From positions 434,001 to 498,000 of the forward strand of contig NW_027590274.1 of the NCBI RefSeq assembly GCF_964213995.1: DNA of 64,000 bases, read 5' to 3'. Made by a program: the position numbers and the translations under genes. Below, piece after piece: positions 1,811-57,035 of the stretch (its first letter is position 1; each line of letters opens with the position of its first letter). Under the pieces are notes generated by a model. The model saw only the letters and a list, made by a program, of their open reading frames with translations. It was not told where the DNA came from and made no database searches. This stretch comes from Mustelus asterias (taxonomy: Eukaryota).

Positions 1811-2510
1811 GAAGGGAAAGGAAATGAGTCCAGTCTACCTCATCCATACATTTTTGGTCCAGTCATATAGACATATATCTGTCTGGCAGCCTGCATGGAG
1901 ATTTCCAGCTGTGTCCAGGACAGGAAACAGTGAGCATGGATCTGTCAATCAGCCTCAATCAGCACCTTCAGGAGAATTGGGAGGGTGAATATTAGATACA
2001 GCAGAGTGAGAATGGAGGGAGAGTGTGTGGGATGGAGATTTACAGTTTTTGGGGAATGAGAGAGAAAGGAATGTTTCATAGAAACTAGAACTGTCTGTTC
2101 TGAATTTCTATCCTGTACTGACACTGATGACTTTTGTAAATTCCTTTTACAGGATATCAGAAGGTGAGAATTTACAGACAGAAATCTCAAACCAAACATC
2201 ACATCAACATCTGACAGAGTCACTCAATTTATCGGGACCTGAATATCACTGACCTTTCAATCTAGAAGGGGAAAGGTTTCTCTGTTCTGTCAGCTTCTGA
2301 AGATTTTAAGTATCTGTGTGACTGGAAAAGCACCAAGACACACACACACCTGAGTCAGAGTGCTCCAGTGCACTGAGTGTGGAAAGAGCTTTAACCAGTT
2401 ACACCGCCTGAAAATACATCGCAGCATTCACAGCGGGGAGAGACTGTACCCTGTTCTGTGTGAGATTTAACTGATTGTTTAACCTGGAGAGTCACAAGGA
2501 CACCCGAACC

Positions 2511-3264
2511 ATGGGGAAACCGTGGAAATGTGGGGACTGTGGGAAGGGATACATGTGCCCATCTCGGCTGGAAATCCATCGACGCAGTCACACTGGCGAG
2601 AGGCCCTTCAGCTGCTGTGTGTCTGGGAAGGGATTCACTCAGTCATCCGAACTGCGGACACACCAACTAGTTCACACTGGGGAGAGGCCATTCACCTGCT
2701 CTGTGTGTGGGAAGGGATTCACTCAGTCATCCAGCCTGCAGGCACACCAGCGAGTTCACACTGGGAAGAAGCCATTCACCTGCTGCGTGTGTGGGAAGAG
2801 ATTCAGTCAGTTATCCAACCAGCAGAGACACCAGCGAGTTCATAATGGGGAGAGACCATTCACCTGCCCTGTGTGTGGGAAGGGATTCCGTCAGTTATCC
2901 ACCCTGCAGAAACACCAGCGAGTTCACACTGGGGAGAGGCCTTTCACCTGCCCTCAGTGTGAGAAAGGATTCTCCAACTCTTCCAGCCTGCAGACAGCGC
3001 ATTCACACTGGAGAGAGACCATTCACCTGCTCTCAGTGTGGGAAGGGATTTACTGCCTCATCCAGTTTGCAGACACACCAGCAAGTTCACACCGGAGAGA
3101 GGCCGTTCACCTGCCCGAAGTGTGAGAAGGGATTCACTAACTCATCCAGCCTGCGGACACACCAGCGAGTTCACACTGGGGAGAGGCCGTTCACCTGCTC
3201 TCAGTGTGGGAAGGGATTCAGAGTTTCATCCCAGCTGCTGCGACACCAACAAGTTCACGAGTGA
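2511..3264 (+). pseudogene. C2H2 zinc-finger gene ZNF-1, 9 fingers, frameshifted
   Basis: ATG 2511 MGKPWKC; TGERPF linkers; apparent 4-bp deletion near 2995 (CTGCAGACAGCGC); finger 2 has Cys to Ser; acceptor TTTTACAG ends at 2152. Confidence 0.9.
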
Positions 3265-3559
3265 TTCCAGGGGTTGAATTCTGCTGTTATTGTTTCTGCT
3301 CTCAATTACATCCAGGACTGCATTTTGTTCATTCTCACAGTTGGTCAATGGGGAGGGTCGGAGGGTTTCTTTCTGCTGGACTGGCCAGTCTCACCACTTT
3401 GCCTCCAGTGGGCTGATGCTCTTTGAGTCTTGTTGCGAATACCTGGTTTCAAATTTCACACGGATCACAGAGTGACAGGGTGTTAGGAAGTTAAGAGTCA
3501 CTATTTCTGTTTGAAACTTCCCAAATGCTCATCCAATTTCCTTTGTAATTGTTTATTGT

Positions 3560-3815
3560 CTCCACTTCCTCCACCCTCGGAGGCAGCGAGTTCCAGGTCA
3601 TTACCATTCGCTGCATCAGAATATTCTTCTTCACATCCCCCCCCCTCGCATCTCTGTTCCAAAACCTTAAATCTGTGCCCCCTCTCGTCCTTGTCCCATC
3701 AGTTAATGAGAACAGCTTTTCTTTGTCCACCTTATCTAAACCTGTCAGAATCTTGTCCACCTCTATCAAATCTCCCTTCAACCTCCTTTGCTCCAAGGAG
3801 AACAACCCCAGCCTG
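3560..3815 (-). mobile_element. CR1 3' fragment fixed in the ZNF 3' tail
   Basis: RLGLFSLEQRRLKGDLIEVDKIL; the same fragment recurs at about 20960-21235, 33330-33580 and 46220-46470. Confidence 0.85.
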
Positions 3816-4635
3816 ACATTGACAATAAAGAACAAACTAACATAATATGTTACTACCTGAAATTAAATGGGAATGTTTAATTTCTGTTTTAAAGATATTG
3901 TGAATATATTGTCCTGGCCAATAAAGAAATTGCAATAACTCACCTTGGGTGTGGTTGAATGGAATATATCAATCTGGTATCCACCTACAGTCCAGTGAAT
4001 GTCTGGAATGTGTAGCTGGAAATCCCTAACAGCACTGTGGGTGTACCTACACCTCAGGCATTGTAGCAGTTCAGGAAGGCAGTGTTGGGGTTGACCATGT
4101 CCGAGGCAGCTACAGACAGCCACATATCCTGTTATAATTGAAGGACTGCAGATTGAATGTGAGGCATTATGGGACTGGACTATCTTGACCACATTCCTGT
4201 GACTGCTCAGTTTCTGCAATCACGGACCATTAAAGCTGCTCAGCAGGGCCCCGACAGAGGACCTGGTGAGAATATTTACTCAGAATGACTTAGAATTAAA
4301 CTTATTCCAGGATCGGCTGGTGTTCAGTGGCTGAGATACTTGAATCTGTAAAAAGGGGGTCTGACCAATCAACAAACGATGATAGGTAGTTGGTTCAAAG
4401 CGTTCTCAGGCATTATTTAAATTATTTTATCATATATTTGTGACCTGATAGTTGGTGAAGTGACAGATACTCCAAGTAGCACTGGACTGAAAAGCGGACC
4501 TCAGAGTAGATTCTAATGGTTATAATCTTACCCAAGCATGGCCAGTGAAAAACCAGAGCTCGAGTGGGTACCGGACAGGTCTCTTACCTGCCATTTGGAA
4601 ACTAAGAACAAGAAACTTATTGATACAATGTTAAG

Positions 4636-4812
4636 AGAATAGAGCCAACGTTTTGAGTCTGGATTACACTTCAGAAGAGCTCTTATGAAAGGTCATCCAG
4701 ACTTGAAACATTGGCTCTATTCTCTCTCCACAGATACTGTCAGACCTGCTGAGATTTTCCAGCATTTTCTGTTTTTGTTTCAGATTCCAGATTCCGCAGT
4801 ATTTTACTTTTA
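4636..4812. mobile_element. Penelope-like pseudo-LTR with inverted 5' segment
   Basis: Imperfect palindrome of about 90 bp centred on AAGAGCTCTT with a decayed hammerhead core; paralogs at 34275-34452 and 43533-43710. Confidence 0.65.
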
Positions 4813-5389
4813 TGATAAAATGATTAGTTCTGATTGGAATCCCCACGACTCTCCCGCCAAATAGAGGGAGTGGTGGCAAAGGGAAAAAAGGATAAGGATG
4901 ATAAAGTCTGGGTTCTGATTCTCATGTAGAACTAACAAAATGAGTGAATCAGTTTATAAAGAACAGAAGTTACCCATCCCTAACAAAAACTGATCAAATT
5001 AAAATTATTCGGTTGAGGAAGAAAACAAAAAGAATAATAGATGAAGTTTAAAATTAAGATTGTTTTGTTGTTAGAGATTTTTTAAATTATGTAAAGAACA
5101 TAAGAACATAAGAAATAGGAGCAGGAGTAGGCCATCTAGCCCCTCGAGCCTGCCCCGCCATTCAATAAGATCATGGCTGATCTGACGTGGATCAGTACCA
5201 TTTAAAGTGATGTAATTGTGTGCCAAGTTTTTGCTGCTCACTCCCCACCCCTTTAGGTTCTGTAGAAAAGTTAACCCTTTCAGCAGACAGTTCATTTGTT
5301 TTTAAATCGCCCGGAAACGTATGTCTATTTTGCTTTATAATTGAGGATTTATGGGAACCAGTTAAATGTGGAAATTTTAAGCATAGCCA

Positions 5390-55292: not shown

Positions 55293-55294
55293 GT

Positions 55295-55490
55295 CCCTCC
55301 CCCCCCCCCCCTGGGCTTTGCCCCCCCCCCTGGGCTTTGCCCCCCCCCCCCCCGGGCTTTGCCCCCCCCCCCGGGCTTTGCCCCCCCCCGGGCTTTGCCC
55401 CCCCCCCCCGGGCTTTGCCCCCCCCGGGCTTTGCCCCCCCCGGGCATTGCCCCCCCCCGAGCATTGCCCCCCCCCGAGCATTGCCCCCCC
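55295..55490. repeat. GGGCTTTG/GAGCATTG-(C)n tandem repeat with G-quadruplex potential on the minus strand
   Basis: About 10 units separated by long C runs, adjoining a SINE remnant. Confidence 0.9.
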
Positions 55491-55559
55491 AACCCACACA
55501 TCCTGGGACACTAAGTGGCAATTGAGCATGGCCAATCAACCTAACCTGTACATCTTATA

Positions 55560-55718
55560 AACAGTAAGAAGTCTCACAATACCAGGTTAAAGTCCAACAG
55601 GTTTATTTGATCGCACGAGCTTTCGGAGCACTGCTCCTTCATCAGGTGAATGGCCACTCACCTGATGAACCTGGTGTTGTGTGCCCACCCCAGTCCAACG
55701 CCGACATCTCCACGTCAT
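55560..55718. mobile_element. Penelope pLTR with inversion
   Basis: Same family as the 22426, 28779 and 30720 copies. Confidence 0.75.
55614..55648 (-). ncRNA. Minimal hammerhead ribozyme
   Basis: Reverse strand CAC-CTGATGA-A-GGAGC agt GCTCC-GAAA-GC-TC-GTG. Confidence 0.7.
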
Positions 55719-56612
55719 CTTATGGACTGCAGATTGATTCTCTGGAGAATCCTGTTCTTTCTCTCTATCAACATTCCTCTGCAAGTTTTATTTCCTTCAA
55801 GTACCCATCCAATTTCATTTTGAAATGATTGAATCTTCTGTTCCACCATCCTCATAGGCAGCGAGTTCTAGATCATGTGCTCTCCCTACCTAAATATAAA
55901 TCTTCCTCAAATCCCTGCTCTACCACTACTCAAGTAATGTCCTGTATGTTACACTTTTATCCAGTATTATAGACATCTGTCTGGCAGCCTGCATGGAGAT
56001 TTTCAGCTCCCTGTGTCCAGGACAGGAAGCCGTGAGCATGGATCTGTCAATCAGCCTCAATCAGCACCTTCAGGAGAATTGGGAGGGTGAATATTAGATA
56101 CAGCAGAGTGAGAATTGAGGGAGAGTGTGTGGGATGGAGATTTACTGCGTTTGGGGAATGAGAGAGGAAAGAATGTTCCATAGAAACTAGAATTGTCTGT
56201 TCTGAATTTCTGTCCTGTACTGACACTGATGAATTTTGTAATCTCCTTTTGCAGGATATCAGAAGGTGGGGATTTACAGACAGAAATCTCGAATCAAACG
56301 TCACATCAACATCTGACAGACATTTGATTGATTGGGACCCGAATATCATTGGCCTTTCAATCTTGAAGGAGAAATCTTTTAATGTTCTGTCTGCGTCAGA
56401 ATTTTTTATAACATAAATGTGACTGGAAATACACCAAGACACAGACACACCTGAGTGAGAGTGTTCCAGTGCACTGAGTGTGGAAAGAGCTTTAACCAGT
56501 TACACAGCCTGAAAATACATCGCAGTATTCACAGCGGGGAGAGACTGTACCCGTGTTCTGTGTGAGATTTAATTGACTGTTTAACCAGGAGGGTGACAAA
56601 GACACCTGCACC

Positions 56613-57035
56613 ATGGAGAAACCGTGGAAATGTGGGGACTGTGGGAAGGCATGTCAGTGCCCATCTGAGCTGGAAACCCATCGACGCAGCCACACCGGGG
56701 AGAGACCATTCACCTGCCTTGAGTGTAGGAAGTGTTTCACTCAGTCAAGCAACCTGCTGAGACACAAGCGAGTTCACACTGGGGAGAAACCGTACACTTG
56801 CTGTGTGTGTGGGAAGGGATTCACACATTCGTCCACCCTGCAGGATCACCAGCGGGTTCACACCGGGGAGAAGCCTGTCACCTGCTCCAAGTGCGGGAAG
56901 GGATTCAGTCGGTTATCAAACCTGCAGGAACACCAGCGAGTTCACACTGGGGAGAAACCATGCACCTGTTGGGCGTGTGGGAAAGGATTCACTCAGTCAT
57001 CCAGCCTGCTGAGACACCAGCGAGTTCACAAGTGA
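56613..57035 (+). CDS. C2H2 zinc-finger protein ZNF-9, 5 fingers
   Basis: 140 aa (5x28), MEKPWKC; acceptor ends at 56254. Confidence 0.88.

What the first reader, a model, noticed from the sequence alone, without database searches (positions are those of the whole stretch)
1884..57035. KRAB-less 'MEKPWKC' zinc-finger family in rapid birth-and-death
Seen: nine ZNF genes in 64 kb (5 intact, 4 broken). Each is a finger array of about 5-14 fingers with an invariant M[E/D/G]KPWKC..C.K start and variable recognition helices, with no KRAB, SCAN or BTB domain. Known: KRAB-ZNF clusters in tetrapods evolve this way and repress transposons through an effector domain. Inference: a shark-lineage analogue in which the atypical conserved first finger (Trp, and Pro in the helix) may recruit cofactors instead of binding DNA.
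Basis: partly seen in the sequence, partly recalled or inferred. Interest (0 to 1): 0.7.

Follow-up and report, generated by a model that had tools for sequence, protein, structure and literature searches.

The report
Shark finger-only genes, frozen lead finger
These nine genes belong to a shark family with over two thousand copies whose proteins consist only of zinc fingers; the rear fingers change unusually fast at their DNA-reading positions while the first finger keeps a fixed outer face, so it likely docks a partner protein in place of the silencing domain that land vertebrates use, though no partner or DNA target has been shown.

Summary
Confirmed: nine C2H2 genes, five intact and four broken. 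The family has at least 2,243 exact start-motif matches genome-wide. It spreads by young segmental duplication: one window gene has 83 near-identical copies. The start codon lies in a former finger linker, behind a spliced leader of three decayed fingers that is closed in 55 of 56 genes, so an upstream effector exon is unlikely. Finger 1 is constrained (118 versus 209±12 amino-acid changes). Helix positions +1/+2/+5 are frozen (dN/dS 0.07), its base-contact positions look neutral (1.33), and those of rear fingers are positively selected (2.04). The same finger sits second in a sister subfamily and occurs in rays. Cofactor docking and transposon targets remain untested, and Pro at +1 also occurs in a solved zinc-finger protein (ZFP568). 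Large shark ZNF counts are already tabulated (PMC10547256), and this scan noted the family before on other DNA. Verdict: new variant of a known kind.

The parts
2153..2510 (+). Z1 non-coding leader: splice acceptor, former linker, three decayed fingers
2511..3264 (+). Z1 finger array, broken by a frameshift
8256..9098 (-). Z2 intact, 10 fingers, 280 aa; lead finger lacks Pro+1 and Glu+5
9099..9486 (-). Z2 non-coding leader from acceptor at 9486
10768..10860 (-). Predicted Z2 promoter and short first exon ending in a CAG|GTGAGT donor (inferred from sequence only)
12730..13168 (-). Z3 broken (frameshift; cut by LINE-like insert); two tandem signature fingers
13169..13512 (-). Z3 non-coding leader
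14721..15339 (-). Z8-type promoter and first-exon module upstream of Z3, 96% identical to 48621-49242
18330..18680 (+). Z4 non-coding leader
18681..19607 (+). Z4 intact, 11 fingers, 308 aa
32004..32360 (+). Z5 non-coding leader
32361..33034 (+). Z5 finger array, broken by a frameshift
38202..38936 (+). Z6 broken: TGA in finger 1; acceptor lost by deletion
44415..44743 (+). Z7 non-coding leader
44744..45922 (+). Z7 intact, 14 fingers, 392 aa
48720..49048 (+). Z8 predicted promoter (CCAAT, GC-box and NRF1-like motifs; labels recalled) and first exon; donor after 49048; no ATG in 48870-49048
49049..49510 (+). Z8 intron (GT..AG), inferred from a relative's contig joining the exon end to an acceptor-like start
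   Evidence: table 7
49511..49868 (+). Z8 non-coding leader with in-frame stops
49869..50849 (+). Z8 intact, 11 fingers plus 19-aa tail; 83 near-identical genomic copies
56255..56612 (+). Z9 non-coding leader
56613..57035 (+). Z9 intact, 5 fingers, 140 aa
43990..59468 (.). Young segmental-duplication block (Z7, tRNA-Val, Z8; in some copies also the TCR V gene and Z9), recurring elsewhere at about 91-99% identity

Best explanation
These genes encode finger-only proteins of a shark family with over two thousand copies, in which the rear fingers diversify under positive selection and likely read fast-changing DNA such as transposons, while the lead finger keeps a frozen outer face that likely docks a shared partner protein instead of reading bases. 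Steps. (1) Shown: the ATG lies in a former finger linker behind a conserved acceptor and a closed, non-coding leader. (2) Shown for one contig of a relative: a first exon is joined straight to that acceptor. (3) Shown: positive selection at -1/+3/+6 of rear fingers. (4) Shown: purifying selection on W, K, P+1, S+2, E+5 and R+9 of the lead finger, neutral-like change at its contact positions, and few base-reading residues there. (5) Inferred from helix geometry: +1/+5/+9 face away from the bases. (6) Inferred, untested: that face binds a cofactor, and the targets are transposons that become silenced. (7) Shown: copies are born in large mosaic duplications and often die.
For: Leader closed in 8 of 8 window genes with an acceptor and 55 of 56 sampled genes, with no codon periodicity (0.23/0.25/0.23), lengths mod 3 of 22/20/14, and 0 of 83 with a later acceptor. 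TGA at codon -13 in 54 of 76. A contig of run X1 reads from the exon end directly into an acceptor-type start. Lead finger: 118 amino-acid changes against 209±12 under leader-calibrated neutrality in 31 intact genes; K, S+2, E+5, P+1 and R+9 show 0-2 changes each against about 8 expected. In 22 disjoint pairs, dN/dS at +1/+2/+5 is 0.07 [0-0.19] in finger 1 against 1.17 in rear fingers; at contact positions it is 1.33 [0.80-2.25] against 2.04 [1.61-2.63]. W/P/S/E are kept at 117 of 120 sites in intact genes and 119 of 140 in broken genes, P=0.0004. E+5 is in 2 and W in 1 of 285 rear fingers. Helical wheel: +1/+5/+9 centre at 140 degrees, contact face at 300 degrees. The same finger persists in position 2 of the MEGK sister subfamily (117 matches), in stingray and other shark proteins, and is sometimes tandemly duplicated (Z3, L064-L066).
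Against: No binding, repression or target data of any kind. The signature sites were picked after viewing the same data. P-S-x at a helix start and an E+5/R+9 pair could simply stabilise the fold (recalled helix chemistry). P+1/S+2 occurs in ZFP568 fingers. In the tree test, lead-finger positions -2, -1, +3 and +6 changed faster than the leader-based expectation (14-19 against 8-9), which fits DNA reading; but fourfold sites also ran about 1.4 times faster than the leader. Intact Z2 lacks both P+1 and E+5. The RNA support is one contig from a relative, in a run only guessed to be RNA, and other contigs cover the predicted intron. The exon-1 donor motif was found within 3 kb in only 4 of 76 sampled genes, so most first exons were not examined. 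Rear-finger alignment is open to finger shuffling and gene conversion. Human finger-only ZNF146 binds LINE-1, yet its loss did not change detectable full-length L1 RNA (PMC8896011, passage).
Confidence: 0.45

Rival explanations
1. The lead finger is a structural cap or a backbone and edge-of-site DNA anchor, not a cofactor dock. The proteins act by occupying DNA, or through factors that bind finger arrays generically.
For: P+1/S+2 occur in ZFP568 fingers. Net charge of finger 1 is still positive (+1.9 against +2.3). Its contact positions are variable and possibly selected. The conserved residues fit helix capping and an i,i+4 salt bridge (recalled). ZNF146/OZF is finger-only and binds LINE-1 (PMC8896011).
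Against: Rear fingers fold without these residues (E+5 in 2 of 285). The signature is kept when the finger is internal (MEGK subfamily), where no end-capping role applies. It is shared between sharks and rays.
Confidence: 0.3
2. The family is largely a passenger of duplication-prone DNA; copy number reflects mutation pressure and most copies do nothing.
For: Only 30 of 76 sampled starts are intact. The 29 Z8 copies examined differ 0.19% from consensus, with 7 synonymous and 18 non-synonymous variants against 262:716 sites, a neutral ratio. A TCR V gene was amplified in the same block.
Against: Linker dN/dS 0.30 and signature dN/dS 0.09, relaxation in broken genes and positive selection at contact positions show that older members are under protein-level selection. 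This rival may hold for the youngest copies only.
Confidence: 0.12
3. An effector domain is supplied by an exon not seen here: upstream through an alternative acceptor, or downstream by splicing or the short C-terminal tail.
For: The leader looks like a former coding linker, and database gene models extend through it (P0014, P0019, P0071). Most first exons were not located. A few members translate a 17-20-aa tail that is stop-closed in most. An earlier AI note reports fingers spliced to a transposon-derived tail in some members (e1-8795615, not tested here).
Against: Leader closed in 55 of 56 and no later acceptor in 83. In 31 of 46 listed arrays a stop follows one residue after the last His. 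The frame covering Z8 exon 1 and leader has no Pfam match.
Confidence: 0.08
4. The rear fingers diversify against targets other than transposons, such as satellites, the ZNF genes themselves or viral DNA.
For: Positive selection names no target. KZNFs often bind satellites, promoters and other KZNFs (PMC10547256, passage).
Against: ZNF and retroelement counts correlate across animals (PMC10547256, abstract), and the window is dense in LINE- and SINE-like repeats.
Confidence: 0.05

Closest known systems
KRAB zinc-finger genes (tetrapods and lobe-finned fish)
   Same: Clustered tandem C2H2 arrays, birth and death, positive selection at base-contact positions; arrays in one last exon behind an acceptor and linker (last point recalled).
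   Different: No KRAB domain; upstream exon and leader are non-coding; no TRIM28 link shown.
FiNZ-ZNFs of cyprinid fish (PMC10547256) and KRAB-like ZNFs with TRIM33 (PMC11603059)
   Same: Lineage-specific family of hundreds of copies, KRAB-free, marked by one short conserved N-terminal element, with diversifying fingers.
   Different: FiNZ is a separate 28-aa acidic non-finger sequence; here the conserved element is itself a C2H2 finger. TE repression was tested for FiNZ-ZNFs, not here.
ZNF146/OZF and ZNF507 (human; PMC8896011)
   Same: C2H2 proteins with no other recognisable domain; both bind LINE-1; fingers reported to bind partners (UBC9 and RAP1, from cited titles only).
   Different: ZNF146 is a single conserved gene, not a family of thousands, and no shared signature finger is described.
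Tandem-ZNF ORFs counted in shark assemblies (PMC10547256 supplement: 3,586 in Scyliorhinus canicula, 1,851 in Carcharodon carcharias)
   Same: These counts probably include relatives of this family; database names are automatic, such as 'zinc finger protein 239-like'.
   Different: Only counts are given; 'shark', 'cartilaginous' and 'catshark' do not occur in that paper's main text.

Membership tests
KRAB-ZFP | KRAB domain N-terminal to the array | tested here: not met
   No PF01352 among the families shown for 5 intact proteins or the Z8 upstream frame; leader closed. The genome-wide PF01352 search gave 0 of 76 candidates, but its control also rang nowhere, so it is uninformative.
KRAB-ZFP | Tandem C2H2 array with TGEKP-type linkers | tested here: met
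KRAB-ZFP | Clustered birth and death with positive selection at -1/+3/+6 | tested here: met
   30 of 76 intact; dN/dS 2.04 [1.61-2.63]
KRAB-ZFP | TRIM28 recruitment and H3K9me3 silencing of transposons | not testable with these tools
   Needs pull-down and ChIP
FiNZ-ZNF | Separate 28-aa acidic N-terminal FiNZ sequence | tested here: not met
   Proteins have only 6 residues before the first Cys; no FiNZ profile was run
SCAN- or BTB-ZNF | SCAN or BTB domain | tested here: not met
   no room in the ORFs
Finger-only ZNF (OZF-like architecture) | ORF made of fingers only | tested here: met
Finger-only ZNF (OZF-like architecture) | Orthology to ZNF146 | not tested
   No tree against ZNF146 was built; treated as an analogue only
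Mobile element carrying a ZNF gene | Fixed element ends with unrelated flanks | tested here: inconclusive
   10 copies share mosaic blocks up to the full 20 kb fetched, with no common pair of ends; terminal repeats and ends beyond 10 kb were not searched

The most novel reading that the evidence does not exclude
Sharks and rays run a third vertebrate zinc-finger silencing system in which the effector module is itself a zinc finger: one ancient finger gave up base reading, froze its outer face as a corepressor dock, and was kept at the front of thousands of transposon-reading arrays while everything upstream decayed and a new start codon arose just before it.
Probability: 0.3. Interest if true: 0.8.

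Novelty: new variant of a known kind. Interest (0 to 1): 0.5.

Why it matters
How KRAB-less vertebrates use very large zinc-finger families is open. This family offers one concrete 27-residue candidate module with named residues (W, K, P+1, S+2, E+5, R+9) that can be tethered, mutated and used as bait. A positive result would show a DNA-binding fold re-used as the family-wide effector and give cartilaginous fishes a counterpart to KRAB and FiNZ. A negative result would favour action by occupancy alone. The 83-copy young duplication also shows gene birth in progress, with a T-cell receptor V gene carried along.

Tried and rejected
(1) A discrete transposon carrying Z8: no fixed ends in 10 flanked copies, so read as segmental duplication; ends beyond 10 kb were not examined. 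(2) Read-through or editing of the leader's TGA codons: rejected, since leaders are frameshifted at random and lack codon periodicity. (3) Read-through into the C-terminal tail: many copies carry second stops or frameshifts after the first stop; not pursued further. (4) A middle exon ending near 49341 in Z8: the loose end there did not match the next exon; dropped. (5) Genome-wide KRAB search: uninformative, control silent. (6) Self-association of fingers 1-2: the complex predictor was not available, no verdict. (7) Search of 1.84 billion representatives with finger 1 ranked long arrays by finger number and was not used. (8) Codon-model omega from IQ-TREE was not captured in the output; simulation and pair counts were used instead. 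(9) No run is on record as RNA ('no RNA holder listed'). The first read-laying was swamped by finger cross-matches. (10) The low-divergence subset failed on a division by zero. (11) V translations were in the wrong frame; corrected. (12) No target prediction from a recognition code was attempted.
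Full report
OBSERVATION. A six-frame scan finds nine finger arrays, each opening with M[E/D/G]KPWKC. Z2, Z4, Z7, Z8 and Z9 are intact with 10, 11, 14, 11 and 5 fingers. Z1 and Z5 are frameshifted, Z3 is frameshifted and cut by a LINE-like insert, and Z6 has a stop in finger 1. Pfam shows no KRAB, SCAN or BTB among the families listed (best 25 shown for Z4 and Z7). Pro at +1 is present in 8 of 9 lead fingers.

GENE ANATOMY. Eight of nine genes have a conserved splice acceptor 329-388 nt before the ATG. Between acceptor and ATG lie a linker-like stretch and three decayed fingers; the ATG occupies the Gly position of a finger linker. 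All eight leaders have in-frame stops. For a sample independent of finger 1, I searched a 23-mer of the leader (1,109 matches, first 100 listed) and fetched 80 regions holding 82 matches, all on contigs C10-C71. Of these 82, 67 had a finger 1 downstream and 15 did not. A second motif search in the same loci gave 76 starts, a few of them not true family starts: 30 intact, 5 cut by the locus end, ATG in 69, TGA at codon -13 in 54. With the window genes added, 56 of 83 show AG at the aligned acceptor; 1 of 56 leaders is open; lengths mod 3 are 22/20/14; divergence has no codon periodicity; and 0 of 83 have a later acceptor. The leader is therefore non-coding today.

TRANSCRIPT. No run is on record as RNA. 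In contigs of four runs guessed to be RNA, from related organisms, one contig (X1, depth 30.7) follows the Z8 first exon to 49026, and its loose end reads through the exon end directly into an acceptor-type start (table 7). This implies a GT-AG intron at 49049-49510. Other contigs cover that intron, so unspliced or paralogous forms exist. Z8 has no ATG from 48870 to the donor. The ATGs at 48858 and 48867 would open only a short upstream frame that stops at 49659-49661, and the frame has no Pfam match. This exon-1 donor motif lay within 3 kb in only 4 of 76 sampled genes, so first exons are largely unexamined; the closed leader carries the argument.

FAMILY SIZE AND BIRTH. Two start patterns match 2,067 and 2,243 times, reversed controls 0. 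These are matches, not gene counts. A sister subfamily starting MEGK has 117 exact matches. In most of its 10 fetched loci that keep frame, and in 4 of 7 loci with a canonical linker, the same W/P/E finger is second; the other 3 of 7 are tandem repeats of it. Z8 alone has 83 exact matches to a private 37-mer on 43 contigs; 29 of the 30 best copies keep a full ORF. Ten copies fetched with 10 kb on each side share mosaic blocks up to 20 kb at 97-99% identity without common ends: segmental duplication rather than a discrete transposon. Among 29 copies, variants are 7 synonymous to 18 non-synonymous against 262:716 sites, so the youngest copies show no selection yet. Some may be uncollapsed haplotypes.

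SELECTION. On a tree of 31 intact genes with rates from the leader, finger 1 shows 118 amino-acid changes against 209±12 simulated, and finger 2 shows 176 against 221±12. In finger 1, W, K, P+1, S+2, E+5 and R+9 show 0-2 changes each (about 7-8 expected), while the five non-aromatic equivalents in finger 2 show 7-15. Positions -2, -1, +3 and +6 of finger 1 show 14-19 (8-9 expected), but fourfold sites also exceed the leader rate (50 against 36). In 22 disjoint pairs chosen by leader similarity from 54 intact genes, finger 1 has overall dN/dS 0.46 [0.35-0.63]. With dS taken from helix codons not used for pairing, +1/+2/+5 give 0.07 [0-0.19] in finger 1 and 1.17 [0.95-1.49] in rear fingers; -1/+3/+6 give 1.33 [0.80-2.25] and 2.04 [1.61-2.63]. 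With dS pooled over whole fingers the contact values were 1.78 and 2.66. W/P/S/E are kept at 117 of 120 sites in 30 intact genes and 119 of 140 in 35 broken ones (P=0.0004). Caveats: signature sites were chosen on these data, 'intact' is defined by the Cys/His pattern, and finger shuffling can inflate counts.

WHAT FINGER 1 LOOKS LIKE. R/K/Q/N/H occupy -1 in 3% and +6 in 7% of lead fingers, against 59% and 39% of rear fingers; -1 is hydrophobic in 73%. On a helical wheel +1/+5/+9 centre at 140 degrees, the contact positions at 300 and the core at 14 (idealised geometry, no model built). P+1 with E+5 occurs in 7 of 125 fingers of 24 shark and ray proteins and in 1 of 326 fingers of 49 named other proteins; 47 of the 120 hits had no species name and were left out. 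Stingray proteins carry it as their first finger, and catshark and zebra-shark proteins as their second. Against over-reading: ZFP568 has two fingers with P+1/S+2, finger 1 is still net positive, and intact Z2 lacks P+1 and E+5.

MECHANISM. Most likely (0.45) the rear fingers read fast-changing DNA, probably retroelements, and the lead finger presents a fixed surface to a shared partner. Architecture, selection pattern and duplication are shown; partner, repression and targets are inferred. The main rival (0.3) is a structural or backbone-anchoring finger with no dedicated cofactor. Passenger amplification (0.12), a hidden effector exon (0.08) and non-transposon targets (0.05) follow.

COMPARISON AND LITERATURE. 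The family works like KRAB-ZFP and FiNZ-ZNF clusters in its evolution but fails membership of both. In architecture it resembles ZNF146/OZF. Papers seen: PMC10547256 (abstract, part 1 of 9, passages, 7 supplement files searched, files 3-5 not); PMC11603059, PMC8896011, PMC8455134 and PMC10380595 (passages). PMC8455134 reports KRAB-box families among those lost in cartilaginous fishes. Nine searches listed no paper on this family or finger, judged from titles and abstract starts; subscription papers are mostly not covered. Earlier AI notes of this scan describe the same family on other DNA of this and other genomes; they are leads, not support.

VERDICT. Real, large and under selection; a new variant of a known kind. 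Interest 0.5. The finger-as-effector reading has probability about 0.3 and would merit 0.8.

Noticed in passing
window 53524-54000 (+): T-cell receptor alpha-like V gene with leader exon, intron, open V exon and a 23-spacer recombination signal, lying among ZNF genes; the best PDB hit holds a TCR alpha chain and many others are TCR alpha. 13 of 40 scored genome matches are 99-100% identical, mostly about 4 kb from Z8 copies; 27 others at 86-96% lie on other contigs. 12 of 12 fetched keep signal and frame. Likely an orphon amplified by the ZNF duplication.
   Followed up: partly
window 47678-47752 (+): tRNA-Val-like gene inside the duplicated block upstream of Z8; looks diverged.
   Followed up: no
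window 48380-48620 (+) and about 9900-10300 (-): Fragments resembling Tx1-type retrotransposon ORF1 (before the Z8 promoter) and ORF2 end (in the Z2 intron); identification is from recall, and Pfam gave no match. Earlier notes report Tx1 insertions at ZNF first exons.
   Followed up: no
window 50790-50849; 3' ends of most family members: A conserved 17-20-codon tail follows the last finger. It is translated in Z8 and a few others but closed by TGA one codon after the last His in most.
   Followed up: partly
window 48741-48876: A promoter-like module of about 135 nt is covered by many contigs in all four runs laid, with unrelated sequence on either side, so it is probably shared by many loci.
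   Followed up: no
L031, L033, L037, L041, L044, L046, L049 (Z6 paralogues): These Z6 copies lack the stop in finger 1 but are cut after finger 2 by an insertion, and their rearranged leader is open for 63-126 codons.
   Followed up: no
window 43990-44172 against 1910-2093, 9546-9720, 31763-31948, 56012-56195: Part of the conserved ZNF intron occurs inverted upstream of Z7.
   Followed up: no
L064 (G000:C16:92884613-92887639): A member with at least three, and the linker of a fourth, tandem copies of the signature finger.
   Followed up: no
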